A stretch of DNA of 64,000 nt. Origin: an uncultured bacterium. Lineage in GTDB: Bacteria > Omnitrophota > Omnitrophia > Omnitrophales > Aquincolibacteriaceae. This document shows positions 1-59,887 of the stretch, one piece after another (the stretch's first letter is position 1; each line of letters starts with the position of its first letter). The stretch is taken from NCBI GenBank assembly GCA_964482725.1, contig CAYZYT010000013.1:1465-65464 (forward strand). The letters run 5' to 3'. The translations under genes were made by a program, and so were the position numbers. Under the pieces are notes generated by a model. It saw nothing but the letters and a program-made list of their open reading frames with translations. It did no database searches and was not told the origin of the DNA.

Positions 1-3000
1 AATCCATGCCTTCCCAGTTCACACCCGCCTTGGAAAGCACCCCGAGATCCGACCAGTTCACGCCCGCCTTAGAAAGAACATCCATGCCAATCCAGTTCAT
101 ACCCGCCTTTGACATCACATTGAGATCCGACCAATTCACACCCGCCTGCGTCAAAACATTCAGGTCTGCCCAGTTCACGCCGGCCTTCGACAGAACATCC
201 ATGCCGGTCCAATTCACTCCAGACCGCGACATCACTTGAAGATCCGTCCAATTGACGCCCGTCTTCGAAAGAACATTCAGGTCCCCCCAATTCACGCCCC
301 CCACGGAGAGTGCCTGCATCCCGCTCCAGTTCACTCCGGTTCTGGACAGAACACCCACATCCAACCAGTTGACACCCGAACTCAACATGGCATTAAGATC
401 GCTCCAATTCAGACCCGCCTGGGTCAGAACGTTGAGATCCCCCCAATTGATCGCTGCTTTTGAAAGAGCCTTGATGTCTTGCCAATTCACGCCCGCGCGA
501 GAAAGCACCTGAATATCGTCCCAGTTCACCCCTCCTTCCGAAAGCGCCTGAATCCCGCTCCAGTTCACGCCCGCCCTCGACAGGACATCCATCCCGCTCC
601 AGTTCACTCCGGCCTTCGAGAGAACATCGATCCCGCTCCAGTTCATACCCGCTTTCGAAAGCACCCCCATATCCGACCAATTCACTCCGGCCCGCGACAT
701 CACATTGAGATCCGACCAATTGATCCCTGTTTCCGAAAGGACATTGAGATCCCCCCAATTCACTCCCGCTTTCGAAAGAACATCGATCCCGATCCAGTTC
801 ACGCCCGCCTTGGAAAGAACTCCCATATCCAGCCAATTCACACCAGCTTTTGACATCACATTGAGATCCGACCAGTTGACACCCCCCCGGGACAGAACAT
901 TCAGATCCGTCCAGTTCACTCCTGCCTTGGAAAGGATCCCCATATCAAGCCAATTCACTCCTGCCTTTGACATCACATTGAGATCCGACCAATTCACGCC
1001 CCCCGAAGAAAGCTCCTGGATCCCATTCCAATTCACCCCCGCCCGCGACATCGTCTGAAGATCTGCCCAATTCAAGCCTGCCCGCGTCAGCACGTTGAGA
1101 TCAGACCAGTTCACGCCAGCCTTAGAAAGGACATTAAGATCCGACCAGTTCACGCCGGACTTCGACAGCGCGCTCATATCCGACCAGTTCAAGCTGGCTT
1201 TGGACATGACATCCAGATCCGACCAGTTCACCCCGGCCCTTGAAAGAACATTCAAATCCGACCAGTTCACCCCAGCCCTTGAAAGAACATCGATGCCGCT
1301 CCAGTTGACTCCCATTTCAGACATCACATTAAGATCCGACCAATTCACGCCCGCTTTAGAAAGAGCGTCGATGCCGTTCCAATTCACACCCGCTTTTGTA
1401 AGTACTCCCATATCGAGCCAGTTGACCCCTGCTTTCGACATCACATTCAAATCGGCCCAGTTCACACCTCCCGCCGAAAGCGCCTGCATCCCGCTCCAAT
1501 TCACACCCGCTTTTGAAAAAACATTGAGATCCGCCCAGTTCACGCCACTTCGCGTGAGAACATTCAAATCCTCCCAATTCAAGTGAGCTTGGGTCAAGAT
1601 ATTAAGATCGGTCCAATTAATGCCCGCCTGGGATAAGGCTCCCATATCCAGCCAGTTCACACCGGCACGCGACAGCACATTTAGATCCGACCAATTCACA
1701 CCCGCTTTCGAAAAGATCCCGATGTCCGTCCAATTCACACCGGCGATCGACATCGCTTGGATCCCACTCCAGTTCACGCCCGCCTGGGAAAAAACATTTA
1801 GATCGGCCCAATTCACGCCGGCTCTTGAAAGAGCATCGATGCCACTCCAATTCACGCCCGCCTTGGAAAGCACCCCCATATCCAACCAATTCACACCCCC
1901 GACTGAAAACGCCTGGATCCCGCTCCAATTCACTTCCGCCCTTGAAAAAATATTAAGATCAGCCCAATTGATGCCCGCTTTGGAGAGAACATCGATCCCG
2001 GTCCAGTTCACGCCCTCTTTGGAAAGCACGCCCATCTCGGTCCAATTGATCCCGGCTTTAGACAATGAATCGATCCCGCTCCAATTCACTCCAATTCCCG
2101 AAAGGACATTGAGGTCCATCCAATTGACACCGGCTCGGGAAAGAGCATCGATCCCGCTCCAGTTGATCGCAACTTTGGACATAACACTAAGATCGATCCA
2201 ATTAACTCCGGCCCGGGAAAGGGCATCAATCCCGCTCCAGTTCATCCCCGCCTTAGAAAGCACACCGATATCCACCCAGTTCACACCGGCTTTGGAAAAA
2301 GAATCGATCCCGTCCCAATTCACACCCGCCTTCGACAATACATTTAAATCGGTCCAATTCACGCCCGATTTTGAAAGAATGTCGAAATCCGCCCAGTTCA
2401 CGCCGGCCGCCGAGAGCGCTTGCATCCCACTCCAGTTCACGCCCGCTTTCGAAAGCACATTAAAATCGGACCAATTCACACCCGCCTTCGAAAGCACATC
2501 GATACCGTTCCAGTTAACACCCGTTTTCGACAACACATTCAAATCGGACCAATTCACGCCCGCTACCGATATCACCTGAAGATCCGTCCAATTCACGCCC
2601 GCTTTGGAAATAGCATCCACACCGCTCCAATTCACACCCGCTTTTGTAAGCGCTCCAATGTCAAGCCAGTTCATACCAGCCTTCGACATCACATTAAGAT
2701 CTGACCAGTTAATCCCCCGGGTGGAAAGGGCATTCACATCGGACCAATTGATCCCGGCGTTCGAGAAAACACTCATATCCATCCAATTCACGCCCGCTTC
2801 CGAAAGAGCATCGATACCGCCCCAATTCACACCGGATTTTGAGAGAACATCGATCCCAATCCAGTTCACGCCCGCTTGCGAAAGAGCATCGATGCCGTCC
2901 CAGTTCACACCCGTGCGCGAGATCACCTGGAGATCCGTCCAGTTCACACCCGTCTTAGAAAGAACGCCCAAATCGGACCAGTTCACGCCCGCTTTAGAAA

Positions 3001-4915
3001 GGGCCTCCATATCGCCCCAGTTGACACCGGTCTGCGTCAACGTACTCAAGTCCGTCCAGTTAACACCCGCACGAGTTAAGACGTTGAGGTCCGCCCAATT
3101 GATCCCCTCTTTCGAGAGAATATCGAGATTTGCCCAGTTCACGTTGCCATCCGAAAGCGCCTGAATCCCGGACCAGTTCACACCGGCAGTCGAAAGGATA
3201 TCAAGATCCGCCCAATTCACTCCCGCTTTCGAAAGCACACTAAAATCGGACCAATTCACTCCCGCTTTCGAAAAGACTCCGATATCCAACCAATTGACTC
3301 CCGCTTGTGACATCACATTCAAACCGTCCCAGTTCACATTCGCGGAACTCATAACACGCATATCGGTCCAGTTCACATTGGCTTTTGTAAGCGCCGCCAA
3401 GTTATCCCAATTAATGGTCTCCGACCAATCGACATGAGCCCCGGTCATCTTCGCGAAATCATCCCAGTTCGCGCCGGCCTTGGACATACGTTGAATGTCT
3501 CCCCAGTTCACTCCCGCCTGGGACAGAACTTCGATATCGTTCCAGTTGATCCCAAGACTTGACATCCGTCCCACATCAAGCCAGTTCGTTCCGGCCACGG
3601 ACAAAGCCTCAATGCCGCTCCAATTCACCGCGGAAGCCGAAAGCGCTTCGATGCCGCTCCAGTTGACTTTCGCTTGACTCATTTTTGAAAGATCGGACCA
3701 ATTGACTCCGGAGACCGATAACAGGCCGAGATTTTCCCAATTGATCCCGGCCTTGGCCAAACGCCCGATATCTTTCCAGTTCACTCCCGCCAGCGTCAGC
3801 TGCTCGAGGTCAAGCCAGTTGATATTGGCCGTGCTAAACGACATGATCTCCGACCAACGGATGCCGGCCCTCGTCAGGGTCCGGACATCTTCCCAATTCA
3901 TACCTTTTGAGGACAACTCCGCGATATCATTCCAATTAACGCGAGCCTCCGACATCGCCTTCAAATCGTCCCAGTTCGCCTTGGCCACCGCGATCAAAAT
4001 ATCCCCGGTTTTTTTGTACAACGTCTCGGATTGGTTAGCTCCGACCGCGGTCTTGATCGCCTGGATATCCGACCAGTTCATGTCTTCCATTTTAGTTTTC
4101 ATCGAAGAAACATCCGTCTTGATCCCGGAAACATCCGAAGCCATCGAACCTGCCAGCGAGGGAGTAAGAACGTAGGTGCTCCTATAATTTGCACCCATAT
4201 AATTGATCTGGGTGGTAACGAGATACGAGGCATTCACATCGCCCGGGATCCAGGTTGACGAGAATACGCCACCACTGACAGCCGTGGCGGTTGTGAAGTT
4301 GAGACCCGAGTACGTACAGTCGCCTGGCACATAATCACCGTCGATCAGGATCTCGCGGGTTTGGTCATTCTCGTACCAGCTACTGACTGTAAAAGTGCCA
4401 TCGCTATAAGTCAGAACAGTCATCACATAGGTATGGTGATCCGCGACATTAAAAGCATCGGACGTGGCGGAGGTAAGGCCGGCGGCGCTCGCCTGCAGCG
4501 TATACATTTCTCCAGACTTATTCATGAACAAACCCTTCCCCGCGAAATCAGCCACGCCCCCGACGGCGTCCATGGTAATGGTACCGCCAAGCGTGGCTCC
4601 GGAGGGGTTGTTCGAAAGAGCCAGCGTAACGGTATTCGTCGCCGTCGCAAATAACTCATCATTCCCGTCCCGAATCTCCACAATGGGGTCTCTCGAGAAC
4701 ACCTGTCCGACAATTTGGTCTCCGGGATGAGCCGTAAAGACGAGGTGGGTGGGCACCTGCACGCTACCTTCCGCGGAAGAAGAACCCTCTCCGTCCCCGC
4801 CGGTGTAAATCGCGGCATTGCCTGTGTTCATTCCCAAAAAGAAAATAGCGGTCACCAGCCAGACCATGCTCCGGTAACCGGGATTTTTTTTATGGAAAAA
4901 GGAGAGGAAGCTCAT
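1..4915 (-). CDS. Giant secreted 13-aa tandem-repeat protein (partial; C-terminus beyond window start). Signal peptide + Ig-like domain + >100 'NWxD[LI]xx[LM]SxAGV' repeats
   Basis: Manual minus-strand translation from ATG at 4915: MSFLSFFHKKNPGYRSMVWLVTAIFFLGMNTGNAAIYTGGDGEGSSSAEGSVQVPTHLVFTAHPGDQIVGQVF... then ...MNWSDIQAIKTAV.., VNWNDIAELSSKGMNWEDVRTLTRAGIRWSEIMSFSTANINWLDLEQLTLAGVNWKDIGRLAKAGINWENLGLLSVSGVNWSDLSKMSQAKVNWSGIEALSASAVNWSGIEALSVAGTNWLDVGRMSSLGINWNDIEVLSQAGVNW... Open continuously down to ~3290 by hand; units sampled at 1-400 give the same frame (SDLGVLSKAGVNW, IGMDVLSKAGVNW, SDLNVMSKAGMNW). Strictly conservative substitutions (L/M, K/R, N/D/Q). Absent from ORF track because no in-window stop. 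Confidence 0.75.
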   Translation of the reverse strand, partial: MSFLSFFHKKNPGYRSMVWLVTAIFFLGMNTGNAAIYTGGDGEGSSSAEGSVQVPTHLVFTAHPGDQIVGQVFSRDPIVEIRDGNDELFATATNTVTLALSNNPSGATLGGTITMDAVGGVADFAGKGLFMNKSGEMYTLQASAAGLTSATSDAFNVADHHTYVMTVLTYSDGTFTVSSWYENDQTREILIDGDYVPGDCTYSGLNFTTATAVSGGVFSSTWIPGDVNASYLVTTQINYMGANYRSTYVLTPSLAGSMASDVSGIKTDVSSMKTKMEDMNWSDIQAIKTAVGANQSETLYKKTGDILIAVAKANWDDLKAMSEARVNWNDIAELSSKGMNWEDVRTLTRAGIRWSEIMSFSTANINWLDLEQLTLAGVNWKDIGRLAKAGINWENLGLLSVSGVNWSDLSKMSQAKVNWSGIEALSASAVNWSGIEALSVAGTNWLDVGRMSSLGINWNDIEVLSQAGVNWGDIQRMSKAGANWDDFAKMTGAHVDWSETINWDNLAALTKANVNWTDMRVMSSANVNWDGLNVMSQAGVNWLDIGVFSKAGVNWSDFSVLSKAGVNWADLDILSTAGVNWSGIQALSDGNVNWANLDILSKEGINWADLNVLTRAGVNWTDLSTLTQTGVNWGDMEALSKAGVNWSDLGVLSKTGVNWTDLQVISRTGVNWDGIDALSQAGVNWIGIDVLSKSGVNWGGIDALSEAGVNWMDMSVFSNAGINWSDVNALSTRGINWSDLNVMSKAGMNWLDIGALTKAGVNWSGVDAISKAGVNWTDLQVISVAGVNWSDLNVLSKTGVNWNGIDVLSKAGVNWSDFNVLSKAGVNWSGMQALSAAGVNWADFDILSKSGVNWTDLNVLSKAGVNWDGIDSFSKAGVNWVDIGVLSKAGMNWSGIDALSRAGVNWIDLSVMSKVAINWSGIDALSRAGVNWMDLNVLSGIGVNWSGIDSLSKAGINWTEMGVLSKEGVNWTGIDVLSKAGINWADLNIFSRAEVNWSGIQAFSVGGVNWLDMGVLSKAGVNWSGIDALSRAGVNWADLNVFSQAGVNWSGIQAMSIAGVNWTDIGIFSKAGVNWSDLNVLSRAGVNWLDMGALSQAGINWTDLNILTQAHLNWEDLNVLTRSGVNWADLNVFSKAGVNWSGMQALSAGGVNWADLNVMSKAGVNWLDMGVLTKAGVNWNGIDALSKAGVNWSDLNVMSEMGVNWSGIDVLSRAGVNWSDLNVLSRAGVNWSDLDVMSKASLNWSDMSALSKSGVNWSDLNVLSKAGVNWSDLNVLTRAGLNWADLQTMSRAGVNWNGIQELSSGGVNWSDLNVMSKAGVNWLDMGILSKAGVNWTDLNVLSRGGVNWSDLNVMSKAGVNWLDMGVLSKAGVNWIGIDVLSKAGVNWGDLNVLSETGINWSDLNVMSRAGVNWSDMGVLSKAGMNWSGIDVLSKAGVNWSGMDVLSRAGVNWSGIQALSEGGVNWDDIQVLSRAGVNWQDIKALSKAAINWGDLNVLTQAGLNWSDLNAMLSSGVNWLDVGVLSRTGVNWSGMQALSVGGVNWGDLNVLSKTGVNWTDLQVMSRSGVNWTGMDVLSKAGVNWADLNVLTQAGVNWSDLNVMSKAGMNWIGMDVLSKAGVNWSDLGVLSKAGVNWEGMD

Positions 4916-6501
4916 GACGCGGTCCTCGCGCAACGCCCGCCATAATCGGCTCCACGCGTCGTGTCGGCCGTGGCGGCTCGATCACGATCTGAAACTGCAA
5001 GCCGCACGACATCTGCGGAAGCAACAGACCAACCGCCGCCTTTCAAGCCACTCCCCACGGCATCGCTCAATCCCGGCCATGATTCATTGGCATCGCCTTG
5101 CGCAGTCAATCCGCCATCTCCGTGAGCTCCGTTAAACCCGCGGCCTTCTGAATTTCCGACAGTCACGACACGCTCCCACACATTTCCGGAAAGGTCCAGA
5201 TTGCCGTAATAACCCGCTCCCGAAGCAACGCGAGTCGTTGTGGAAGTCGTCGCAAAAATACCCACCCGAAGAGGACCGGTCCCCGACTCCGTAACGCCGG
5301 TAAAATTGACATTGCCATATAAAGCATTCGCACCGCTCGTGGTGATCGTTTCCCCGCCGGTCTCGGGCCCCGAAATCCCACTGCCCGCCGGTTTCATAAT
5401 GCTGTCATTGCCCCAGGCATATTCTCCCGCCACGGGAGCATTCCCCGCTCCGCGGCAGGCTTTTTCAAATTCAAGTTCCGTCATAGGTCTCAAACCAGCC
5501 CAGTCCGCATAGGCCGCAAGATCCATCCATGAAAGAAAACCGCAAGCTCGGGGCGAGCGCGTCGTCCGTGCGTCTCCAGACTCCCAAAAGATCGTATTTC
5601 GGCTCACCACGCCATCGCTGTTTTTCCCCGAAGCGGCCGTGATATCGCGCGTGGCCTTCTGAGTCGCGGTCAGTGTATTGAAAAAACCGACCCATTGCCC
5701 TTCCGAGATTTTATATTTCATCAGATAAAAAGGTGCATAACCTTTAGGGAACGCTGCCGCGAGCGGTCCCGCGCCGCCGATGCCACTCGGACCACCGTTC
5801 GACCAAAGGTTCCCCTCGACGGCGTTGATGGTAAGAGCTGCTTCCGAAGTAACCCGGTAAGGGATCGTAGCCCCATCGATCCACGACCCGTCCGTCAAAC
5901 TGTTCGATTCTGTTCCTCCGGAACCAACATAAAACGCCCCTTCAGGGATATAGACCATTTCGATTGCAAAAACATTGACCCGCGTCGACGTCGCACGAGC
6001 ATTCGCGTCACTCACACCATTCGCGGCATAATCCCAAACCAGTTTGATTCCGCTGGTGGAAACAGTCCCCGTCCCCGCACTCGAACGCCGGATAAAACAA
6101 CCCTTAAGATCCCCGGGGACCACCAGATCGATAGTCGTCCCGGTGCCGCGCTCAAAACCGGCGGGATTGGCGCCAGCAGTTTTGAGGATCGCGTGATGCC
6201 AAGAGGATCCGGAATCCGTGGAATATTTGACGAAAATCCAAACCGCATCATAATTGGCGGCATCGTACCAAGAGTTGTCCCACGAAATATTAAGACCGAT
6301 TTTTGCGGTATGGGTTCCGCTATCCTGATCCGCTACGACCACTCTGGAAACGCGTACATTATTGGCGAGAGCCGAAAGAGGAAAGGAGAGAACAAGGAGC
6401 GCTAAGGCCAAGGATATCTTCCAATTTCTTCCCCTGTCTAACTCCTTGCAGCAGAAGAGACTACCACCACTTACTTGTCTTAAAAAAGCTCTAAGCATCA
6501 A
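4912..6501 (-). CDS. FGE-sulfatase / DUF323 (SUMF1-like, C-type-lectin fold) domain protein with N-terminal signal/TM segment
   Basis: 529 aa ORF. Motifs VYIPEGAFYVGSGG, LMKYKISEGQWVGFF, GFLSWMDLAAYADWAGLRPMTELEFEKACRGAG, YAWGN, GNVWERV, GGGWSV match the formylglycine-generating-enzyme family. Stop TGA overlaps the start ATG of the downstream giant gene (ATGA). Confidence 0.8.
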   Translation of the reverse strand: MMLRAFLRQVSGGSLFCCKELDRGRNWKISLALALLVLSFPLSALANNVRVSRVVVADQDSGTHTAKIGLNISWDNSWYDAANYDAVWIFVKYSTDSGSSWHHAILKTAGANPAGFERGTGTTIDLVVPGDLKGCFIRRSSAGTGTVSTSGIKLVWDYAANGVSDANARATSTRVNVFAIEMVYIPEGAFYVGSGGTESNSLTDGSWIDGATIPYRVTSEAALTINAVEGNLWSNGGPSGIGGAGPLAAAFPKGYAPFYLMKYKISEGQWVGFFNTLTATQKATRDITAASGKNSDGVVSRNTIFWESGDARTTRSPRACGFLSWMDLAAYADWAGLRPMTELEFEKACRGAGNAPVAGEYAWGNDSIMKPAGSGISGPETGGETITTSGANALYGNVNFTGVTESGTGPLRVGIFATTSTTTRVASGAGYYGNLDLSGNVWERVVTVGNSEGRGFNGAHGDGGLTAQGDANESWPGLSDAVGSGLKGGGWSVASADVVRLAVSDRDRAATADTTRGADYGGRCARTAS

Positions 6502-6753
6502 CTGAACCTATCTCAATTTTGCGCATCCTGGGCGAAAGGCGCGCTGTTTTCAGAAATTCTTCGATGCGTCAATGAGCATTTTAACTTAACCTCAAATGGC
6601 TAAGCAACTTACACAATAATTATAGCATGAATCCCTCTTTGGTGTAGGAGAATTAGATAGATTTTTGTCAATACAATGGAGGATAAAAACTGCAGGGATT
6701 CTCAGATCAAAACTACCTAAAAAAAACAACGTAACTACATTGCCCTAAACAGG

Positions 6754-7680
6754 TTACATCTCTTTTTGCATTTTCTCGAAATCTCTCTTGAGAGGCTCAT
6801 CCGGCGCTACTCGAGACAATTGATTCAAATCCCAGAGCCGCATCCTGATTTTCTTAGACTCTTCACTCGGCGGTTTTAGATTCAGATATTGTTGATAATA
6901 GGTCCTCGCCTCGATTTGTTTCGCCAAATGATAGTCGTAAATAATAGCAAGATTATGATAAGCCCATGCCAATTTCGGATTCAGATGGAGGGCTTTTTTA
7001 TACTGACCGATCGCATCTTCGTATCGCCCAAGATCGTAATACACATTGCCAAGATCAAAACAGGCTCCGACCAGCTGATCCTTGAGGCTCAAATTTTCGG
7101 AATTCACCCCGGCCACCATCCCCACCGAATTTTTTACGGACTCTTCATTCTTTTTCGCAACGTCAATGATCCGGCTACGTTCCGGCTCCAGAACCGACTG
7201 GTTCAAAAGCCCTTTTAATTTTTCATTGGTGTCGTTCAACTCTTGATTTTTTGCTGTGATCTCCTGACGCTGGACCGCCGTATCCAGGCTGCCGCCTTCC
7301 AGCTTCGCGATCTCTTTGCGCGATGCCTCGAGCTCAGACTTCAGCGTTTCGACCTGGGAGCTGATCTCACGCTCTTTCGCACCCCCACCGCTCTGCGTTT
7401 GCTGGGCCTGTAGCGCAAGGTCGTTCTTCTCCGCGGTAAGCTTCTCATAAGAATCCTGGAGATCTCGCATATTCTGGCGAACCCTGCGGTTTTCCTTCAA
7501 AGTTTCATTCAACGTATATAATATTTTCTCGACATTTTGTCCTTCCGGAGTCGAGGGGCCGACAGAAGCAGGGTCCTTCTCCTTGGCCGCAAACGCCAAA
7601 TTCGCATTGAACCCCAAGGACAAAACCAACACGCCCAGCCCGAAAATCTGAAAACTTTTAGGGAAGAAATTCCTCGTCAT
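6754..7680 (-). CDS. Secreted coiled-coil + C-terminal TPR protein (possible secretin-associated / pilotin-like)
   Basis: 308 aa; N-terminal signal peptide; long heptad-rich region (LKSELEASRKEIAKLEG...); C-terminal TPR (YYDLGRYEDAIGQYKKALHLNP, AWAYHNLAIIY). Start overlaps secretin stop (ATGA). Confidence 0.6.
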   Translation of the reverse strand: MTRNFFPKSFQIFGLGVLVLSLGFNANLAFAAKEKDPASVGPSTPEGQNVEKILYTLNETLKENRRVRQNMRDLQDSYEKLTAEKNDLALQAQQTQSGGGAKEREISSQVETLKSELEASRKEIAKLEGGSLDTAVQRQEITAKNQELNDTNEKLKGLLNQSVLEPERSRIIDVAKKNEESVKNSVGMVAGVNSENLSLKDQLVGACFDLGNVYYDLGRYEDAIGQYKKALHLNPKLAWAYHNLAIIYDYHLAKQIEARTYYQQYLNLKPPSEESKKIRMRLWDLNQLSRVAPDEPLKRDFEKMQKEM

Positions 7681-9413
7681 CGCTGCGCCCTTTTAATGTC
7701 TGGTATTTTTTGCAACAAAGTCGCCGACCCATCCATGAGCGGTGGGGAGTAATCTCCACCCGTTCCTTGCTGCTTCCCCACATCAAAAGCCCCAATCCCA
7801 AGCATGCTGAGCGTATCCGTCGGCATACTTCGCGCCGACCGCGACGTAGGATTTCTGGTTTTGATCGCGATCGGCTCATCGAGATAATCTTCTTCTCCCG
7901 TCACAATGTGCGGAGTGATAATAACCGCGATCTCCGTTTTTTTGAAGCTCTCATTACGCGCCTTGAACATATGCCCCACGACCGGAATGTCCATCAAATA
8001 AGGGACTCCCTGATTACTCCGGGTCTGTTCATCCCGAATGAGCCCTCCCAACACCACCGAATTCCCATCTTGGATGATGACGGTCGATTCCACGAAAGTG
8101 GTATTCACTTTTGGGATCACGTTCTTAGTGGGCGTGACCAACTCACCGATCTGGCTTGAAATCTCCGGCCGGATCTTCATGGTCACAAAACCCTTGTCAT
8201 TAATGACGGGCGTCACCACAAGCACAAGACCGATGTCAATAAAACGGATGTCTTCACTGACGGAAACATTATTCCCGGTCCCCGTCGACGTGGTCACCAC
8301 ATACGGGATCCGGTCTCCGATGTTGATCTTTGCCTCCTCGCGGTCCATGATCATGACGCGCGGGTTCGCAAGCAACTTCGTATCCTCGATCTCCTTGACC
8401 GCTTTCAAATTAGCCGCGATCTCATCTGTCGCAAAATTCCCGACCACGATCTTTCCGAATTTCCCAAGGTTGGAGGCCGTAGTCTCCATGGGAAACGAAC
8501 TTGCAATGCTCGAATTGTCGAGCCTCCGAAAGACCTTTTGCCAATCGATCCCCCAATTGTATTTAGGATTGAGCGTGAGCTGCAGGATTCTTGTTTCGAC
8601 CATCACGGCCCGGGTCTGCCGGTCGAGCGCCTTGACAAGCCGGACCGCTTGCTCCATCCGTTCAGGATACGCGCTGATCATGATCTGGTTCGACCTGACA
8701 TCCGCCGCGACCGTCCCGACCCCTTTCCCGTCGATCTGCGGTTTCAGCTGCGCCGCAATGTCCTCCGCTTTCGCAAATTGAAGCTTGATCACTTGCGTGG
8801 CAATGTTGTTCTCCACTTGATCCAAAATGGTGTTCATCTGCATCAACTTCTCCGCAGTGTCGATCATCACCACCGTCCCTGCGTCTTCGTCGATAATGAC
8901 TTTCCCGATCGCGCTCTGAATGGATTGCAACGTCGCAAGCACGTAGCTGGGTTTGGCGGTTTTCAGCGTACGGATCGAGATCTTCCGGTTGTCATTGAAA
9001 GTTTTACCGTGCGTTAACGCGTACTCATCTTCGGTCATGATGAGAATGATGCCGTTCCGGATCTGGTAGGCAAGCTGGTTGGAAATGACCAGAATATCCA
9101 ACGCATCTTTGATCTTCACGTTTTTCAGCAACAAAGTCGAACGTCCCTGGACATTGCGACTTGTCACAATATTAAGGCCCCCTTGAACTGCGATAAACTT
9201 GAAAACATCAATGACATTGATATCGCGAAGATCGAGGAAGATCGTTTTTTCAAGGCCGGATTGGGGATCCTTGGCGGCGGCCACTGTCCCCGGAGCTTTG
9301 TCTTCTGGAAAAGCGCTCGGAGCCACAGGGAAACTCGCCGCGATCATGACGGCCAGCAGCACCTTGCCCAGCTTAGAAAATTTCTCTCGCTTTCCCATAG
9401 TCGCGTTTCTCAT
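7677..9413 (-). CDS. Secretin (GspD/PilQ family outer-membrane channel)
   Basis: C-terminal secretin domain: LLANPRVMIMDREEAKINIGDRIPYVVTT..., VTPVINDKGFVTMKIRPEISS, VPYLMDIPVVGHMFKARNESFKKTEIAVIITPHIV. N0/N1-like domains upstream. Start chosen at the MRNATMGKREK methionine just after the upstream stop. Confidence 0.85.
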   Translation of the reverse strand: MRNATMGKREKFSKLGKVLLAVMIAASFPVAPSAFPEDKAPGTVAAAKDPQSGLEKTIFLDLRDINVIDVFKFIAVQGGLNIVTSRNVQGRSTLLLKNVKIKDALDILVISNQLAYQIRNGIILIMTEDEYALTHGKTFNDNRKISIRTLKTAKPSYVLATLQSIQSAIGKVIIDEDAGTVVMIDTAEKLMQMNTILDQVENNIATQVIKLQFAKAEDIAAQLKPQIDGKGVGTVAADVRSNQIMISAYPERMEQAVRLVKALDRQTRAVMVETRILQLTLNPKYNWGIDWQKVFRRLDNSSIASSFPMETTASNLGKFGKIVVGNFATDEIAANLKAVKEIEDTKLLANPRVMIMDREEAKINIGDRIPYVVTTSTGTGNNVSVSEDIRFIDIGLVLVVTPVINDKGFVTMKIRPEISSQIGELVTPTKNVIPKVNTTFVESTVIIQDGNSVVLGGLIRDEQTRSNQGVPYLMDIPVVGHMFKARNESFKKTEIAVIITPHIVTGEEDYLDEPIAIKTRNPTSRSARSMPTDTLSMLGIGAFDVGKQQGTGGDYSPPLMDGSATLLQKIPDIKRAQR

Positions 9414-9414
9414 T

Positions 9415-10092
9415 TTAGTGAATTTCCACCGTATCTTCGCCCGATGAGAGGACCACATGATCCTCAAAGATCTTTGAGACTTTTAGAAGCCCGACCGGAT
9501 CTCCTTCGCGAAGGAACGTCGTGATCCCCTTCTGAACGTCCTCAATCATGCAAAAAACCTTTTTCGGATCCGCTGGATTATAAGAGATCCCGGTCAGCTT
9601 CAGGGTCTTCGTCATGTCAACGAGCTTTGAAGACTGCTCCTTTTCAAGCTTCTGGGCATCCTCCGCACGCTTGTTATACGGCATGAACATCTTTCCAAGA
9701 TCCCAGCTTTCGATCGGCTCAACTTCCTTGGCCGGCTCACTGACCGGCGGAAGCTCCAGCATCTTGGGCTCGGAATTTTCAATCGCCCCGATAACATCCT
9801 TCTTGAGATCCATCGCTCCCAACAAAAGGACCGTAATGAACGCCACCGCCAACAGGGTGACCAAGTACCGTAAGATCCGGTTCAATTCTTTAACGCCAAA
9901 GGAAGTCCTGATCCGTTCCAGGGCATCGTTCGATGTTTTAAGAAATCGGTCTTTCAGCGCCCCTGCAGAAAATCGAGCGCCCTGCTGAACTTTTTTAGCC
10001 CCGGCATCAATATCTTTTTGATGAGCGCTCGGCTCCTCAATGAGATCCAGAAGCCGCTTTTCCGGCGTTAATGAGGAATCTGGCTGAGCCAT
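9415..10092 (-). CDS. Bitopic membrane protein, GspB/ExeB-like (hypothetical)
   Basis: 225 aa; cytoplasmic N-terminus, one TM helix (LRYLVTLLAVAFITVLLLGA), periplasmic C-terminal domain. Sits between the ExeA-like ATPase and the secretin with overlapping ends. Confidence 0.45.
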   Translation of the reverse strand: MAQPDSSLTPEKRLLDLIEEPSAHQKDIDAGAKKVQQGARFSAGALKDRFLKTSNDALERIRTSFGVKELNRILRYLVTLLAVAFITVLLLGAMDLKKDVIGAIENSEPKMLELPPVSEPAKEVEPIESWDLGKMFMPYNKRAEDAQKLEKEQSSKLVDMTKTLKLTGISYNPADPKKVFCMIEDVQKGITTFLREGDPVGLLKVSKIFEDHVVLSSGEDTVEIH

Positions 10093-10940
10093 CCGGCACG
10101 CATTTCCTCGGAAACGATTTCCTCGATAATCTCCTCATCTACGATCCACTTCCGTTTCATCACGAGCTGTTTCAAAGACCGGTGACAAAGCATGGTGATC
10201 TTTCGGGGATACCCCTGGGAGATCTTATGGATCATTTCTATAGCGTCGTCCTGAAAAAGCCGGACGTTCGAGCAATAATTCGCCTGCCGGATACGAAAAA
10301 GGATCATCTCCCGGGTCTCGTCCAAACTCAAAGGGTTCAAAGTGTATTTAAAACTGATCCTATCCATAAAATTCGGGATCTTCATGATCTTGGAGTGAAG
10401 CTCCAACTGTCCGAAAAGAGCCAGCTGCAAGAGCTTCGTGTCGTTGGTCTCATAATTCAGGATCACACGCAACATTTCCATCGAAGCTTCATTGAGCTTT
10501 TGCGCTTCGTCCACAATAAGCACCACGGTCTTATTGCCGATAACGGTTTTCTCATAAAGGAACTTCTCCACCGCCTCTTTGAGGTCCATCACGCTCGGAC
10601 GGCTCCCCTCCATGCGACTGCCGGTATATTGATCCACATTGATGGAAAAGTTCCGGACCAGGGAATAAAGAAATTCGTATTCGTTCTCAAAACAAGGGTC
10701 CAAGACATAATGGACAATAAAGTCCCCGCGCTCCTTGAGCGATTGGATCAACTTGCGGGAAAGCGTGGTCTTTCCGGTCCCGACATCCCCCAACACCACG
10801 GACAATCCGCGCCGCAAACGCAACTCGATCAGGACGTTCGTAAGCGTCGCCTGGTGCCCTTGCGACAAGTAGAGGAATTCAGGATCCGGGCTTGTCGAAA
10901 ACGGCTCCTTTTCGAATCCCAGCATGCGGTAATAGCTCAT
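10068..10940 (-). CDS. ExeA/GspA/MshM-family AAA+ ATPase (secretin assembly factor)
   Basis: MSYYRMLGFEKEPFSTSPDPEFLYLSQGHQATLTNVLIELRLRRGLSVVLGDVGTGKTTL (Walker A), VVLIVDEAQ (Walker B). Typical ExeA N-terminus. The ORF track extends further upstream (11012); internal Met taken as start. Confidence 0.8.
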   Translation of the reverse strand: MSYYRMLGFEKEPFSTSPDPEFLYLSQGHQATLTNVLIELRLRRGLSVVLGDVGTGKTTLSRKLIQSLKERGDFIVHYVLDPCFENEYEFLYSLVRNFSINVDQYTGSRMEGSRPSVMDLKEAVEKFLYEKTVIGNKTVVLIVDEAQKLNEASMEMLRVILNYETNDTKLLQLALFGQLELHSKIMKIPNFMDRISFKYTLNPLSLDETREMILFRIRQANYCSNVRLFQDDAIEMIHKISQGYPRKITMLCHRSLKQLVMKRKWIVDEEIIEEIVSEEMRAGWLSQIPH

Positions 10941-15727: not shown

Positions 15728-17473
15728 CTAGTAATTTGTGTTGAACGAGAAATGAAGCTGAGACTTCCCGGCTTCCGTGATCGGTTTGTCCCCGAGAGGA
15801 ATACCCCACTCAAGACGCGCCGAAAAATCCTTCCGGAAACGAAGCTCAAAACCACCTCCGACACCCAGCAGGAAATCAGACCGGGGTTCTCCGGAACTCG
15901 CATTGGGATCATGCGTTCGTCCGTAACCCATATCGCAAAAAGTGATGATGCTGAGCTGATCCTTCAGAGGGAGGGTGTCAAAAGGAAGTTTCCAGTGATC
16001 GGGTAAGCCATAGACCGGCAGCATGTAATCAAATCGCGACTGAAAACCCTCGTCCGCTCCATAATCGCTTTCAGGATAACCACGAATAGAACGGGCACCG
16101 CCCAAGAACAACTGCTCCTGAGGCAAAAGCTTGTCCGGCGAGAACTGCCCCTGGACATCCCAGATCGCTTTGGTGCGCCATGGCAATTGCGTGAGGCGGG
16201 TTAGCGAATAGGTGTACTTAAAAAAGGACTGCACACCGCCACGGCTCGCAAGGGCCCAATCATCGGGAAAGGTCGGCAGCCCAAAATAAATGCCCTGCCC
16301 CAATCCCCAACCGCCCCAACGATCGCGGGCCTGAAAGTCTCCTTTGAGCGATATCACGCGCTCCTTATCCCATACCGTAGTAACACTTTGCGTCAAGGTA
16401 TGCTTTTCCTTAAAATCAAACCCGAACTGGACATTGCCAGAATATTTTTCTGTGCGGATCACCCGCTGCTGCAAGCCCAAGCTGTAAACTTCGGAAGTTC
16501 CGTTAATGCCATAGATCGAAAACTCTTTCTTGGGATTGACTTGCGCGTGACTGATCGACCAGATAAATTTCGTTCCAAAATTCGAGACCGGGATCACATG
16601 ATAAAGATAAAGAGCCCCAAAGGCTTTGCCAAAGGTCGTCCCGATCAGGAACGTATCGTCAAGCCCTAGCATATTATTGTTCCGGATCGTGAACCCTTGA
16701 CGATCCTTCCCTGTCAGCTTGACCCCTTGGTTATCGAAGGAGTAGCCCAAGTGAAGGGGAAAATGATCTTCGACATCCAACACCACATCCGTCGTCCCTT
16801 TTTCAGCGCCCGCTTTAAGAACCGGCTTCACGGTCCGGTCAGGATTCTCGTTCATGTTCATGACATTCTCACGGATCTTATCGTAGCGGAGAACCTCGCC
16901 CTTGCGGATCTTCCAGTAGGATCGCGTGCGCCATTTGCTGTAATAGCGATTCTTCTCGATTGAAAGCTCTCCCATCCTCGAAGTCACCGCCTTGAGATGG
17001 ACCTCCTGGTTTTCCATTTTTTGGGGTGGGAGCAGAACGACCGCAATATAGCCCTTCGCGCGATACATTTGTTCAAGGGCATTGATAAGCCTCTGAAGTT
17101 CATCAAAATGAACTTCCCTATTCTCATATTTAACGAAAAGCGGCTCGTACTCTTTAGGATCGAGCATCATATCCCCTTCGAGGACGATCTTTTTGATAAA
17201 AAAAGAAGGACCTGTCGCCGGAGCTTCTGGGAGAGGCTCCTCCTCGAACGCTATGGGTTTGGTCGCTTTGGGTTGGAATAATTTCTCGCGGGCTTGATCA
17301 TCGATCTTGGATAACTGGACGGCGGCAGAAGCTCCAAAATTGCCGATCCGGTCTTCACTGGCCGCGAAGAGATGCCCGCTCTGGGCAAGGAAGCCCACAG
17401 AGAAAAAGAGAACGCCTAAAGACAAGATCTTAACTTTGAGTCGGCTCATAGGAGAAAAGACGACACTTTCCAT
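15728..17473 (-). CDS. ShlB/FhaC/HecB-family two-partner-secretion outer-membrane transporter (TpsB)
   Basis: 581 aa; signal peptide; POTRA region (FIKKIVLEGDMMLDPKEYEPLFVKYENREVHFDELQRLINALEQMYRAKGYI); C-terminal beta-barrel ending ...SQLHFSFNTNY with aromatic terminus. Confidence 0.75.
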   Translation of the reverse strand: MESVVFSPMSRLKVKILSLGVLFFSVGFLAQSGHLFAASEDRIGNFGASAAVQLSKIDDQAREKLFQPKATKPIAFEEEPLPEAPATGPSFFIKKIVLEGDMMLDPKEYEPLFVKYENREVHFDELQRLINALEQMYRAKGYIAVVLLPPQKMENQEVHLKAVTSRMGELSIEKNRYYSKWRTRSYWKIRKGEVLRYDKIRENVMNMNENPDRTVKPVLKAGAEKGTTDVVLDVEDHFPLHLGYSFDNQGVKLTGKDRQGFTIRNNNMLGLDDTFLIGTTFGKAFGALYLYHVIPVSNFGTKFIWSISHAQVNPKKEFSIYGINGTSEVYSLGLQQRVIRTEKYSGNVQFGFDFKEKHTLTQSVTTVWDKERVISLKGDFQARDRWGGWGLGQGIYFGLPTFPDDWALASRGGVQSFFKYTYSLTRLTQLPWRTKAIWDVQGQFSPDKLLPQEQLFLGGARSIRGYPESDYGADEGFQSRFDYMLPVYGLPDHWKLPFDTLPLKDQLSIITFCDMGYGRTHDPNASSGEPRSDFLLGVGGGFELRFRKDFSARLEWGIPLGDKPITEAGKSQLHFSFNTNY

Positions 17474-20596: not shown

Positions 20597-21289
20597 TTAC
20601 TGCAAAGGAGTCCAATTCACACTAGAGTTAGAAAAGCCCGTTAAACTACTCGAAATAGCCACTATCCAATAATTTCCTTTCTTGACGGAAAAAGAAACGG
20701 TTCCGTAATAAACTTTTATAGCAGGAGAGACGAGTATACTCATCTGAACGCTATCAACAGCAATGGGGGTGCAATCGCTTAAAGGGCTCGAGCTGCTGCA
20801 GGTGATCCCTTGAATAATGCCGTCCTTTGCAGTGGTGTTTATCTGCACCCATGCAGCCACAAACCCATCGCTCGCCGCGGGGCCATAAGTTGTGTTAGCG
20901 CTCTTCAAACTCGAAGACCCCAGAGACACGCCACCCCCGAGATTCTTCCAGGTGGTACCATCGGTCGTATACTTAAAATTTTCTGAGCCTGATGTATTAT
21001 TATAATAAATACTACCTGCTGCACCGGAGGGGTTCGATACCCCTCCCACAAATGTAAGAACCCCTGTTTGCGGCGTAGTCCCAGTATAGCCTAAGGTAAG
21101 TATCGTGCTTTGGAGCGCGGAATATTCCCCCATCGGCGCGGGATAGTAGGTCGTCAGCTCGATCTTTCCGGCGTAAGCCGAAGGCGCCATCGCTAGAACC
21201 CAAACGATCAGGCTGAATAAAACAGTGGTTTTTAACATAGCAGATCCTTTTTGTTGTTTTATGGCTTTTTTTGAATCCCCTCCGAGCAC
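20597..21289 (-). CDS. Small secreted protein, paralog A of the conserved-N-terminus family
   Basis: Signal peptide MLKTTVLFSLIVWVLAMAPSAYA, then GKIELTTYYPAPMGEY; Ser/Thr/Gly-rich C-terminal domain. N-terminal ~45 codons near-identical at DNA level to 21447..22133 and 24504..25178. Confidence 0.7.
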   Translation of the reverse strand: MLGGDSKKAIKQQKGSAMLKTTVLFSLIVWVLAMAPSAYAGKIELTTYYPAPMGEYSALQSTILTLGYTGTTPQTGVLTFVGGVSNPSGAAGSIYYNNTSGSENFKYTTDGTTWKNLGGGVSLGSSSLKSANTTYGPAASDGFVAAWVQINTTAKDGIIQGITCSSSSPLSDCTPIAVDSVQMSILVSPAIKVYYGTVSFSVKKGNYWIVAISSSLTGFSNSSVNWTPLQ

Positions 21290-48865: not shown

Positions 48866-48920
48866 TCGGCTCAAAGATGCAAAAGGATAGGGGCTGTTTA
48901 GAAAAAGCCTTTGTCTTTTT

Positions 48921-49514: not shown

Positions 49515-49634
49515 AGATGGAGATGTTATTCCCCCAGAATGATTTTTTCAAGGAAAAGAAAACCGTCCAGGGCTGAAAAAGCTTAAGAAACTAAAAAGGC
49601 CTAAGAGGCTGAAAGCTTTTTTGGCCTTTTCCGC

Positions 49635-50753: not shown

Positions 50754-50848
50754 TCCAAGAACCTCTTCGTCTTTAATAATCCCTTAGAAATAGGGTCCCA
50801 ACTACCCCTTTTATAAAATAATTTAAAGTTGCGATGGGGCGAATTATA

Positions 50849-53166: not shown

Positions 53167-53305
53167 CGAATAGATCTCCTTTACCCCGTTAGAGATAGGA
53201 AGCGCTTATCAAAGCGCTTCCGTAAACTCAACATATTCTTTTTAAAATCGTCCTCGCCATAAATCAAATAACAACGAATTGCTTTACATTGATCTCTAAC
53301 GGGGC

Positions 53306-55096: not shown

Positions 55097-55097
55097 A

Positions 55098-56707: not shown

Positions 56708-56711
56708 AGCG

Positions 56712-56933: not shown

Positions 56934-56947
56934 TGGGTTTTCAGCAA

Positions 56948-58022: not shown

Positions 58023-59887
<1,865 letters not shown>

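What the first reader, a model, noticed from the sequence alone, without database searches (positions are those of the whole stretch)
6754..10940. Compact ExeA-like ATPase / GspB-like / secretin / TPR-coiled-coil operon with no GspE/F/G partners, adjacent to the giant-protein operon
Four co-directional genes with overlapping start/stop codons encode the peptidoglycan-associated secretin-assembly ATPase (ExeA/GspA/MshM family), a bitopic partner, a GspD/PilQ-type secretin, and a secreted TPR/coiled-coil protein (pilotin-like?). No traffic ATPase, inner-membrane platform or pseudopilins are in the window. It lies immediately upstream of the FGE-like and giant-protein genes, so the secretin could be the dedicated outer-membrane conduit for the giant repeat protein. 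That combination is not a described secretion system.
Basis: inference. Interest (0 to 1): 0.65.

Follow-up and report, generated by a model that had tools for sequence, protein, structure and literature searches.

The report
Secretin half of an Omnitrophota T2SS
The four genes are real, but they look like the outer-membrane half of a type II secretion machine found across the candidate phylum Omnitrophota, always encoded next to a giant repeat protein that is probably its cargo, rather than a new stand-alone secretion system.

Summary
Four minus-strand genes encode a 290-aa GspA/MshM-like AAA ATPase, a 225-aa bitopic protein, a PilQ/GspD-class secretin and a secreted coiled-coil/TPR protein. 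The bitopic protein's C-terminal domain models as the secretin-binding HR fold of GspC, GspB and PilP. An FGE-fold gene and a giant gene made of 13-residue repeats follow.

The organism is a Candidatus Omnitrophota. The order ATPase–adaptor–secretin–TPR–FGE–giant recurs in about 24 of 36 species-level loci, whatever lies upstream.

The "no E/F/G partner, therefore a new system" reading is not supported:
- Omnitrophota carry a conserved GspE-F-G-I-J-K-L/M locus, usually beside an F-type ATPase.
- That locus never holds a secretin, HR adaptor or GspA: 0 of 38 loci, and 0 HMM hits in 844 kb.
- The two gene sets are therefore complementary.
- Assemblies break inside the giant gene in 18 of 21 contigs that end within 10 kb downstream of the secretin.
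- In the two contigs that span a short version of the giant gene, the F-ATPase operon lies directly downstream, and one of them continues into the GspL/M-like genes.

Best reading: this is the outer-membrane half of a split or supercluster T2SS, with the giant fibre as its likely cargo. Whether the source genome itself carries the partner locus could not be checked.

The parts
10068..10940 (-). GspA/ExeA/MshM-like cytoplasmic AAA+ ATPase (290 aa). Walker A is GDVGTGKT and Walker B is VLIVDEAQ. No transmembrane segment and no peptidoglycan-binding domain.
   Evidence: Pfam AAA_22 9.5e-21 and AAA_16 4.8e-09. NCBIfam TIGR03015 at 167 bits, below the 324.5 cutoff. 58-97% identical across Omnitrophota loci and always first in the module.
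9415..10092 (-). Bitopic inner-membrane adaptor (225 aa). It has a conserved cytoplasmic N-terminal peptide (MAxPDSSLTPEKRLLxLIEE), one transmembrane helix, a linker, and a C-terminal HR-type beta domain of the kind that binds secretin N0 domains in GspC, GspB and PilP.
   Evidence: NCBIfam GspC_delta 8.6e-05 over residues 140-221. Family scan: T2SSB in 17/21 members (best 5.1e-06) and T2SSC in 12/21 (best 2.9e-06). The AF2 C-terminal domain has block-mean pLDDT of about 76-86. Its top seven PDB matches are GspC 3OSS_C (TM-target 0.75, rmsd 1.9 A), PulC 6HCG_e, GspB/OutB 4WFW, PilP 2Y4Y and 2IVW, LspC 7OIO, and PilP in 4AV2. Invariant residues E11, L14, L15, I18, E19.
7677..9398 (-). Secretin (573 aa): signal peptide, N0/STN-like domain, two Secretin_N domains, secretin core, and a C-terminal tail of about 70 aa.
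   Evidence: Pfam Secretin 4.4e-47, Secretin_N 4.7e-20 (two stretches), STN 5.4e-04. NCBIfam PilQ 222 bits, GspD 215, MshL 161, all below their cutoffs. Profile against PDB: PilQ 168 bits, about equal to PulD 166, far above RcpA at 60.6. 711 homologues, the top 120 at least 52% identical, and the names sources give them are Omnitrophota/Omnitrophica.
6754..7680 (-). Secreted coiled-coil (about residues 45-200) plus C-terminal TPR protein (308 aa). No lipobox cysteine. Putative secretin accessory, MshN/TadD/pilotin-like by position only.
   Evidence: TPR_11 5e-12 and TPR_2 8.6e-10 at residues 206-270. Weak NCBIfam hits to PilW (27.8 bits) and Tgl (23.9 bits). Always directly after the secretin in related loci.
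4912..6501 (-). Secreted FGE-fold (SUMF1/EgtB/PvdO superfamily) protein of 529 aa with an N-terminal beta domain. Probably not a catalytic formylglycine-generating enzyme. Its stop overlaps the giant gene's start by 4 nt.
   Evidence: Pfam FGE-sulfatase 8.5e-16. Profile against PDB matches FGE at 7.6e-08, over the N-terminal half of the domain only. No invariant cysteine in a 9-sequence family alignment. One or two copies sit in this position in most related loci.
1..4915 (-). 5' part (1638 codons) of a giant secreted protein: Sec-type signal peptide, Ig-like domain, a non-repeat region of about 200 aa, then about 100 nearly perfect 13-residue repeats (consensus AGVNWSDLNVLSK). Cut by the window end. 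Likely cargo of the secretin system.
   Evidence: Open frame from 4915 to position 2. 102 NW motifs, nearly all spaced at exactly 13 residues. Homologues follow the module in most loci. Called sizes are 7153 aa, 2809 aa and 900 aa (all three lie inside their contigs; the 2809-aa sequence was read through to its end) and 2761 aa for a copy cut by the contig end. One of five AF2 models is all-beta (pLDDT 84.4), with only non-significant beta-solenoid matches.

Best explanation
The four genes are the outer-membrane and secretin-assembly half of a type II secretion (type IV filament-class) machine conserved throughout Candidatus Omnitrophota.

Proposed mechanism:
- The secretin forms the outer-membrane channel.
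- The 225-aa bitopic protein docks its C-terminal HR domain on the secretin N0 domain. Its conserved cytoplasmic N-terminal peptide probably engages the GspA/MshM-like ATPase.
- The secreted coiled-coil/TPR protein assists secretin assembly or spacing.
- The rest of the machine is encoded in a second conserved gene block that never contains a secretin or an HR adaptor. That block holds GspE with a C-terminal PilZ domain, GspF, GspG, GspI/J/K-like pseudopilins, a PilM-PilN fusion equivalent to GspL, and a GspM-like protein, usually behind a type 2/3 F-type ATPase operon.
- The giant 13-residue-repeat protein crosses the inner membrane through Sec. It is then the probable cargo pushed out through this secretin. 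The FGE-fold protein(s) translationally coupled to it act as a non-catalytic or non-canonical accessory.
- In at least some genomes the two halves flank the giant gene in one supercluster. In draft assemblies they look separate because contigs break in the repeats.

Shown: gene identities, the HR fold, conserved synteny, complementarity of the two gene sets, contig breaks, and two spanning contigs.
Inferred: that the two halves work together, that the giant protein is the cargo, and the roles of the ATPase, TPR and FGE-fold proteins.
For: - Gene identities.
- Taxon and family breadth.
- Module-FGE-giant synteny holds in about 24 of 36 GTDB species loci and in four long metagenome contigs. Three unrelated upstream contexts occur: MalQ/TpsB, fatty-acid oxidation genes, and cytochrome bd.
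- Partner locus: GspG scores 148.9 bits against an equivalog cutoff of 88.85. GspE 573 bits, GspF 356 bits, GspK 69 bits, weak GspI/J/M, and a PilM-PilN fusion.
- The partner locus lacks a secretin, HR adaptor and GspA. By tblastn, 0 of 38 loci of at least 10 kb have any of them. A secretin-family HMM gives 0 hits at E<=10 in 844 kb, against 47 control hits in the secretin loci.
- Secretin loci lack E/F/G. The one exception is L037, where a PilM/N-like protein (hhalign 93.7%), a 169-aa protein and a T2SSE ATPase (1.2e-129) sit directly upstream of the GspA-like gene.
- Physical linkage. L047/L048 read: module, 2809-aa repeat protein, 427-aa protein, F-ATPase operon, PilZ, PilMN, GspM-like, TPR. 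The P0135 contig reads: FGE, 900-aa repeat protein, 466-aa protein, F-ATPase operon, cut gene.
- Of 21 contigs that end within 10 kb downstream of the secretin, 18 end inside the giant ORF.
- Known biology: GspC, GspB and PilP HR domains bind secretin N0, and OutB anchors the secretin (PMC9239104 title and abstract). T4aP-class systems are commonly encoded in several loci, and MshM is a mandatory MSH component (PMC6668835).
Against: - The partner locus was not shown in the window's own genome. The window and its 66-kb contig end in the giant gene.
- Only one contig (L047/L048) carries both halves, and there the GspE core, GspF, GspG and GspK are missing from the expected place. So the secretin module and giant gene persist next to a degenerate inner-membrane block.
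- In a close relative the giant gene (7153 aa) is complete inside a 230-kb contig. No PilMN protein listed comes from a contig of that length, so the halves may be truly distant there.
- No experiment links the giant protein to this secretin.
- T2SS substrates of several thousand residues are unprecedented, to my knowledge.
- The secretin scores as well against PilQ as against GspD, so the filament could be a real pilus rather than a pseudopilus.
- HR-domain fold E-values are weak (0.04-0.5) because the domain is small, and the model was made from a single sequence.
Confidence: 0.6

Rival explanations
1. The ATPase, HR adaptor, secretin and TPR protein form a self-sufficient, pseudopilus-free export gate dedicated to the giant repeat protein. 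This would resemble the filamentous-phage pIV secretin working with the pI/pXI inner-membrane ATPase. Outside folding of the beta-rich fibre and/or the GspA-like ATPase would supply the energy.
For: - Tight, phylum-wide synteny of the module with the FGE and giant genes, and translational coupling.
- In L047/L048 the module and giant gene are intact while the GspE core, GspF, GspG and GspK are absent from the adjacent block.
- No E/F/G lies within 10 kb in almost all secretin loci.
- The repeat region may be a thin beta-solenoid (weak).
Against: - A secretin-less, HR-less T2SS inner-membrane locus is conserved in the same phylum and needs exactly these parts.
- HR-domain adaptors are known only as connectors to type II or type IV filament assembly platforms (general knowledge).
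- L037 places L/M/E-type genes directly upstream of the module.
- The isolation of the module is largely explained by contig breaks in the giant gene.
Confidence: 0.15
2. The machine is a genuine type IVa (MSHA-like) pilus, as TXSScan-based work on Omnitrophota annotated it. The secretin would be its PilQ/MshL, the ATPase its MshM and the TPR protein its MshN/pilotin. The giant protein would then be a pilus-associated adhesin or merely a conserved neighbour, not a pseudopilus-driven cargo.
For: - The secretin scores slightly higher against PilQ models than GspD models (222 vs 215 bits; 168 vs 166 bits).
- GspE scores nearly the same against PilB (567 vs 573 bits), and PilM-PilN fusions resemble MshI (the MshI comparison is from memory).
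- Seymour et al. report T4aP genes co-located with type 2/3 F-ATPases in Omnitrophota (PMC10066038).
- An ATPase, secretin and TPR trio mirrors MshM/MshL/MshN (PMC6668835).
Against: - The major pilin-like protein passes the GspG equivalog cutoff (148.9 vs 88.85 bits). GspK- and GspI/J-like minor pseudopilins are present. GspF scores above PilC (356 vs 295 bits). No PilT-type retraction ATPase shows up in the 38 loci.
- MSH systems are almost always single-locus.
Confidence: 0.15
3. The giant protein is exported by the ShlB/FhaC-type two-partner-secretion transporter encoded about 5 kb upstream of the module (15728-17473). The secretin module would then be an unrelated neighbour.
For: A TpsB-like gene with POTRA_2 (1.9e-14) and ShlB (2.1e-24) domains is in the window, and no TpsA-type gene was seen next to it.
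Against: - The first 500 residues of the giant protein have no Pfam hit at all, so no TPS (haemagglutination activity) domain.
- The TpsB gene is syntenic only in the closest relatives (L004/L012, and the window's own duplicate L001). It is absent from the other loci, which keep the secretin-giant link.
Confidence: 0.02

Closest known systems
Type II secretion system with GspA/GspB (ExeA/ExeB, OutB) secretin-assembly factors and GspC-GspD coupling
   Same: It has a PilQ/GspD-class secretin. A bitopic protein carries an HR-fold C-terminal domain like GspC, PulC and OutB. An ExeA-type P-loop ATPase is encoded directly upstream. A partner block with GspE, F, G, I/J/K-like and L/M-like genes exists in the phylum.
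   Different: - The ATPase is only the 290-aa cytoplasmic domain, without the transmembrane and peptidoglycan-binding parts of ExeA/GspA.
- One protein seems to stand in for both GspB and GspC.
- The genes are separated from, or flank, the inner-membrane block instead of forming one gsp operon.
- GspE carries a PilZ domain, GspL is a PilM-PilN fusion, and the block sits behind an F-type ATPase operon.
- The presumed cargo is a protein of about 900 to at least 7153 aa built of 13-residue repeats.
MSHA-type type IVa pilus (MshL secretin, MshM ATPase, MshN TPR protein, MshE, MshI)
   Same: A short ExeA-like ATPase, a secretin and a TPR protein are encoded together. The traffic ATPase has an MshEN domain. 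A PilM/PilN-type fusion is present.
   Different: - Gene order differs.
- MSH systems are almost always single-locus (PMC6668835).
- The major subunit here is GspG-like and a GspK-like protein is present.
- The MshL model scores lower (161 bits) than the PilQ or GspD models.
Secretion/pilus loci reported next to Omnitrophota giant genes (West-Roberts et al. 2023 bioRxiv 10.1101/2023.11.21.568195; 2026 preprint 10.64898/2026.06.07.730766) and the 'symbiotic' F-ATPase/T4aP loci (Seymour et al. 2023, PMC10066038)
   Same: Same phylum and the same theme: very long genes next to type II/type IV filament secretion genes. The F-ATPase plus T4aP-like block is the inner-membrane half found here.
   Different: - The published upstream locus has more than 10 subunits, including gspD/E/F and rcpC with class III signal-peptide genes. 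I read that gene set as Tad-like. It precedes multi-transmembrane giants of more than 30,000 aa.
- None of the three papers contains the words secretin, sulfatase or PilQ. The 2026 preprint, the only one searched for them, also lacks formylglycine, ExeA and GspA.
- The GspA-HR adaptor-secretin-TPR-FGE-13-residue-repeat cluster is not described there.
Filamentous-phage export (pIV secretin with pI/pXI inner-membrane ATPase)
   Same: It is a secretin plus a P-loop ATPase plus a bitopic connector that extrudes a long thin object without a pseudopilus. This is an analogy for the stand-alone rival only.
   Different: pIV scores only 101.6 bits against the secretin profile. The ATPase here is ExeA-type, not Zot/pI-type. 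No phage genes are present.

Membership tests
Secretin superfamily (GspD/PilQ class) | C-terminal secretin domain plus N-terminal ring-building Secretin_N domains and an N0/STN-like domain | tested here: met
   Pfam Secretin 160 bits, Secretin_N 72 bits (two stretches), weak STN. The profile matches PilQ and PulD structures at 2.5e-48 and 8.6e-48, and the Neisseria PilQ N0 domain (4AR0) at 4.8e-11.
GspD equivalog / PilQ subfamily / MshL equivalog (NCBIfam) | Score at or above the curated cutoff of TIGR02517, TIGR02515 or TIGR02519 | tested here: not met
   215 vs cutoff 351, 222 vs 284, and 161 vs 250 bits. The class is clear but the subtype is unresolved.
GspA/ExeA | N-terminal AAA+ ATPase domain | tested here: met
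   AAA_22 9.5e-21. Walker A and Walker B motifs are present in the sequence.
GspA/ExeA | Transmembrane segment and C-terminal periplasmic peptidoglycan-binding domain | tested here: not met
   The protein is 290 aa and shows only P-loop NTPase hits, with no PG_binding hit. It resembles the short MshM-type form. The length of MshM is recalled from memory.
XrtA/PEP-CTERM system ATPase (TIGR03015) | Score at or above the curated cutoff | tested here: not met
   167 bits against a cutoff of 324.5. No PEP-CTERM or exosortase genes turned up among the window ORFs that were scanned.
GspC/GspB/PilP HR-domain adaptors | Bitopic or lipid-anchored protein whose periplasmic HR beta domain binds the secretin N0 domain | tested here: met
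   Topology is read from the sequence. Pfam T2SSB in 17/21 and T2SSC in 12/21 family members. The top seven fold matches are GspC, PulC, OutB, PilP and LspC HR domains. Binding to N0 was not tested.
Complete T2SS | GspE, GspF, the GspG-K pseudopilins and GspL/M in the same genome | not testable with these tools
   They are absent from the window. They are present as a conserved secretin-less locus in other Omnitrophota. The rest of the source genome is not available.
Pilotin lipoproteins (PilF/PilW/Tgl) | Lipobox cysteine and a TPR array of about six repeats | tested here: not met
   There is no cysteine after the signal peptide. TPRs cover only about residues 206-270, preceded by a long coiled coil. 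PilW and Tgl models score 27.8 and 23.9 bits, against cutoffs of 154 and 225.
Formylglycine-generating enzyme | FGE fold | tested here: met
   PF03781 8.5e-16. The profile matches FGE structures at 7.6e-08.
Formylglycine-generating enzyme | Conserved catalytic cysteine pair | tested here: not met
   No cysteine column is invariant in the 9-sequence family alignment. The alignment to FGE structures does not reach the catalytic region. No CxPxR motif was seen in the giant fragment by reading.
Two-partner secretion substrate (TpsA) | N-terminal TPS (haemagglutination activity) domain | tested here: not met
   No Pfam family matches the first 500 residues of the giant protein.

The most novel reading that the evidence does not exclude
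The secretin module, the FGE-fold proteins, the giant 13-residue-repeat fibre, a conserved 427-466-aa protein, a Mycoplasma-gliding-type (type 2/3) F1-like ATPase and the secretin-less T2SS block together form one previously unrecognised Omnitrophota surface apparatus. In it a fibre thousands of residues long is extruded through, or anchored in, a secretin and used for attachment, motility or predation. In some lineages this may work without a canonical traffic ATPase or pseudopilus, as the L047/L048 arrangement hints.
Probability: 0.2. Interest if true: 0.8.

Novelty: new variant of a known kind. Interest (0 to 1): 0.5.

Why it matters
Omnitrophota are uncultivated, ultra-small, probably host-dependent bacteria. 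Their giant genes and pilus or secretion loci are the main genomic clues to how they attach to or attack other cells.

This locus ties one specific, phylum-wide secretin module to one specific class of giant repeat protein. It also ties both to the 'symbiotic' F-ATPase/T2SS block. That yields a concrete, testable cargo-machine pair.

The result also explains why draft genomes hide the connection: contigs break in the repeats. If the giant protein is confirmed as cargo, it would extend the size range of secretin-dependent substrates by about an order of magnitude.

Tried and rejected
- Two-partner secretion by the nearby TpsB. Rejected: no TPS domain, and no conserved synteny.
- PEP-CTERM/exosortase system, suggested by the best NCBIfam hit for the ATPase. 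Rejected: the score is half the cutoff and no such genes turned up nearby.
- T9SS GldK/PorK-like role for the FGE-fold protein. No GldJ/GldK model appeared in the NCBIfam scan, so this was not pursued.
- Catalytic FGE acting on the giant protein. Unlikely: no conserved cysteines and no CxPxR motif.
- Sequence searches of the 225-aa protein against the PDB, alone and as a profile, found nothing relevant. Only the family-wide Pfam scan and the fold search were informative.
- The homologue search with the giant fragment was swamped by unrelated Ig-domain proteins. Only P0121 and P0135 were true relatives.
- The Pfam hits Lysostaphin_N and Ntox33 on the repeats look like repeat or compositional artefacts.
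- The pseudo-alignment of internal repeats was partly mis-registered by MAFFT. Only one of five AF2 models was confident, and no significant fold match followed.
- I tried to find a single contig holding both the secretin and PilMN by comparing contig lengths in the two hit lists. Only the 52,925-bp contig qualified.
- The promoter/terminator scan gave nothing above background.
- The L037-type L/M/E triad was not found upstream of any other secretin locus.

Full report
**Observation**

The region holds four co-directional minus-strand genes at the stated coordinates.
- A 290-aa P-loop ATPase at 10068-10940. It hits AAA_22 at 9.5e-21. Its best NCBIfam model is the ExeA-related TIGR03015, at 167 bits against a cutoff of 324.5.
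- A 225-aa protein with one predicted transmembrane helix, at 9415-10092.
- A secretin at 7677-9398, with Secretin at 4.4e-47, Secretin_N at 4.7e-20 in two stretches, and a weak STN/N0 hit.
- A 308-aa protein at 6754-7680 with a signal peptide, a long coiled coil and C-terminal TPRs.

Two of the three junctions overlap, by 25 nt and 4 nt. The third is a 16-nt spacer.

After a 252-nt gap comes a secreted FGE-fold protein (4912-6501; PF03781 at 8.5e-16). Its stop overlaps the start of a giant ORF that runs off the window (at least 1638 aa).

The rest of the window is housekeeping: MalQ, LemA/TPM, FtsH, RuvAB, LptF/G and sulfur assimilation genes, plus an orphan TpsB-like transporter. No GspE/F/G/K/L homologue is present.

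**Taxon and conservation**

The secretin has 711 detectable homologues. The top 120 are at least 52% identical, and every source name among them says Candidatus Omnitrophota or Omnitrophica.

A scan of one genome per GTDB species returned 36 loci. All are titled Omnitrophota/Omnitrophica or simply "uncultured bacterium".

tblastn with the window proteins shows the same order in about 24 of those loci: ATPase, 225-aa protein, secretin, TPR, one or two FGE-fold genes, giant gene. Most of the remaining loci are simply too short to show the downstream genes. The same order appears in four long metagenome contigs whose upstream neighbours are unrelated: MalQ/TpsB, fatty-acid oxidation genes, or cytochrome bd.

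There are exceptions:
- One locus has lost the giant gene (L021).
- One has a different giant ORF in its place (L035).
- Two lack the FGE gene (L014, L047).

The real unit is therefore a cluster of at least six genes, and the secretin-giant link is conserved.

**The 225-aa protein**

On its own it gives only a weak GspC hit (8.6e-05) and nothing against PDB sequences.

Across 21 family members, Pfam T2SSB matches 17 (best 5.1e-06) and T2SSC matches 12 (best 2.9e-06).

A single-sequence AF2 model has a C-terminal beta domain with block-mean pLDDT of about 76-86. Its seven best PDB matches are all HR domains: GspC in complex with GspD (3OSS_C, TM-target 0.75, rmsd 1.9 A), PulC, D. dadantii GspB/OutB, PilP (three entries) and LspC.

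So it is a GspC/GspB/PilP-class connector to the secretin N0 domain. Its N-terminal cytoplasmic peptide is nearly invariant, and I infer that it contacts the ATPase.

**The partner machinery**

The only complete close homologue of the giant protein retrieved with its surrounding DNA is P0121, 2809 aa. It lies on a 52.9-kb contig that reads, in order:
- the module;
- the giant gene;
- a 427-aa gene;
- an F-type ATPase operon;
- PilZ, a PilM-PilN fusion, a GspM-like gene and a TPR gene.

Homologues of that PilM-PilN fusion are widespread in Omnitrophota.

Their typical locus (L049) is: F-ATPase, GspE (MshEN + T2SSE + PilZ), GspF, a Peptidase_MA_2 gene, GspG, two small pilin-like genes, a GspK-like gene, PilM-PilN, a GspM-like gene and a TPR gene.

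NCBIfam scores for this locus:
- GspG scores 148.9 bits, above its equivalog cutoff of 88.85.
- GspE scores 573 bits, against 567 for PilB.
- GspF scores 356 bits, against 295 for PilC.
- GspK scores 69 bits, with weak GspI, GspJ and GspM hits.

A metagenome scan returned 80 further such loci. Together with the L048 and L049 loci fetched earlier, 38 are at least 10 kb long. None of them has a tblastn match to the window's secretin, ATPase or 225-aa protein. A secretin-family HMM finds nothing at E<=10 in all 844 kb, against 47 control hits in the secretin loci.

The secretin loci, in turn, lack E/F/G. The exception is L037. There a PilM/N-like protein (hhalign 93.7%), a 169-aa protein and a T2SSE ATPase sit immediately upstream of the GspA-like gene.

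The two gene sets are thus complementary. One supplies A, B/C and D. The other supplies E, F, G, I, J, K, L and M.

**Split locus or assembly artefact?**

Of 27 secretin loci examined, 21 contigs end within 10 kb downstream of the secretin. Of those 21, 18 end inside a long open ORF, which is the giant gene. The window does the same.

Two contigs span a short version of the repeat gene, and both continue into an F-ATPase operon:
- L047/L048, described above.
- The P0135 contig, which reads FGE, 900-aa repeat protein, 466-aa protein, F-ATPase operon, then a gene cut by the contig end.

In typical loci that operon precedes GspE. So at least some lineages have one supercluster with the giant gene in the middle. 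The apparent lack of partners next to the secretin is partly due to fragmentation.

Three caveats apply:
- In L047/L048 the GspE core, GspF, GspG and GspK are missing.
- In a close relative the 7153-aa gene is complete inside a 230-kb contig, but I could not read what follows it.
- The source genome itself could not be inspected.

**The other components**

The secretin profile scores equally against PilQ (168 bits) and PulD (166 bits), and much lower against RcpA (60.6 bits). It belongs to the PilQ/GspD class, but the T2SS-versus-T4aP subtype is unresolved.

The ATPase lacks the transmembrane and peptidoglycan-binding parts of ExeA/GspA. It resembles the short MshM form. MshM, MshL and MshE are mandatory MSH genes, and MshN is a TadD homologue (PMC6668835).

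The TPR protein has no lipobox and only weak PilW/Tgl similarity.

The FGE-fold family has no invariant cysteine and matches FGE structures only over the N-terminal half of the domain. It is therefore probably not a formylglycine-generating enzyme.

The giant protein has four parts:
- a Sec-type signal peptide;
- an Ig-like domain;
- a short unique region;
- about 100 nearly perfect 13-residue repeats (AGVNWSDLNVLSK), marked by 102 NW motifs.

One of five AF2 models is a confident all-beta repeat structure, and its only fold matches are weak beta-solenoid hits. This is suggestive only.

**Comparison with the literature**

West-Roberts et al. describe a locus of more than 10 subunits upstream of Omnitrophota giants of more than 30,000 aa. 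It includes gspD/E/F, rcpC and class III signal-peptide genes, a gene set I read as Tad-like.

Seymour et al. describe T4aP genes co-located with type 2/3 F-ATPases. That is the inner-membrane block found here.

A 2026 preprint confirms T2SS/T4P flanks around giants in closed genomes.

None of these three papers contains the words secretin, sulfatase or PilQ. The 2026 preprint, the only one searched for them, also lacks formylglycine, ExeA and GspA. A search for Omnitrophota plus secretin found nothing relevant.

The specific cluster therefore appears undescribed, although its theme is known.

**Verdict**

The gene assignments and the link to the giant gene are supported.

The claim of a stand-alone, partner-less secretion system is not supported. 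The most likely explanation (about 0.6) is the outer-membrane half of a split or supercluster T2SS-class machine, with the giant repeat protein as its probable cargo.

The rivals are a truly autonomous secretin gate (about 0.15), a genuine T4a/MSHA-like pilus with the giant protein as adhesin or bystander (about 0.15), and TpsB-mediated export (about 0.02).

Noticed in passing
window 1-3950 (- strand): About 100 consecutive, almost indel-free 13-residue repeats (consensus AGVNWSDLNVLSK, with N and W invariant). They give the region a strongly negative GC skew (-0.33 at 1-2000). One of five AF2 models predicts an all-beta repeat structure. Pfam hits to Lysostaphin_N and Ntox33 look like repeat artefacts.
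   Followed up: partly
window 20597-21289, 21447-22133, 24504-25178 (all - strand): Three paralogous secreted proteins of about 225 aa share a signal peptide followed by the motif AGK[IV]ELTTYYPAP[MY]GEY. Their C-terminal parts differ, and the middle one carries a phage tail Collar domain (3.4e-24). The other two have no Pfam match. The motif occurs nowhere else in the 129 fetched loci.
   Followed up: partly
window 15728-17473 (- strand): A ShlB/FhaC-type two-partner-secretion transporter (POTRA_2 + ShlB). No TpsA-like gene was seen next to it. It is syntenic only in the closest relatives.
   Followed up: partly
L049 1-13561 (also L050, L053-L126): The Omnitrophota T2SS-type block has unusual features. 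GspE carries a C-terminal PilZ domain. A Peptidase_MA_2 gene sits between GspF and GspG. GspL is replaced by a PilM-PilN fusion. The block usually follows a type 2/3 F-type ATPase operon. A more distant subgroup has a 2-4.5 kb insertion between GspF and the peptidase gene, which I did not annotate.
   Followed up: partly
L048 9378-9998: In the one contig where both halves are contiguous, GspE is reduced to a 206-aa protein whose C-terminal part aligns to the PilZ-domain end of the L049 GspE. GspF, GspG and GspK are absent, yet PilMN, the GspM-like gene and the TPR gene remain.
   Followed up: no
L048 2453-3736; P0135 contig gene at 5614-7014: A 427-466-aa protein with no Pfam hit sits between the repeat gene and the F-ATPase operon in both spanning contigs. 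It may be a further conserved component of the cluster.
   Followed up: no
L037 143-3412: In one Tibetan MAG, a divergent PilM/N-like protein, a 169-aa protein and a 479-aa MshEN+T2SSE ATPase lie directly upstream of the GspA-like gene. This arrangement was not found in any other fetched locus.
   Followed up: yes
L011-L046 (3' ends): Of 21 contigs that end within 10 kb downstream of the secretin, 18 end inside the giant ORF. The repeat gene is a systematic assembly breakpoint in Omnitrophota MAGs, so its size and downstream context are generally unknown.
   Followed up: yes
L035 12760-21429: At the position of the FGE and repeat genes, this locus instead has a different giant ORF. It is at least 2890 aa, has no Pfam domains in its first 1200 aa, and has no similarity to the 13-residue-repeat family.
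   Followed up: partly
window 47726-59348: A cluster of sulfur-assimilation and cysteine/methionine genes: CysN/C-like GTPase-APS kinase, sulfite reductase, PAPS reductase, a PALP enzyme and two Cys_Met_Meta_PP enzymes. It seems unrelated to the finding.
   Followed up: no
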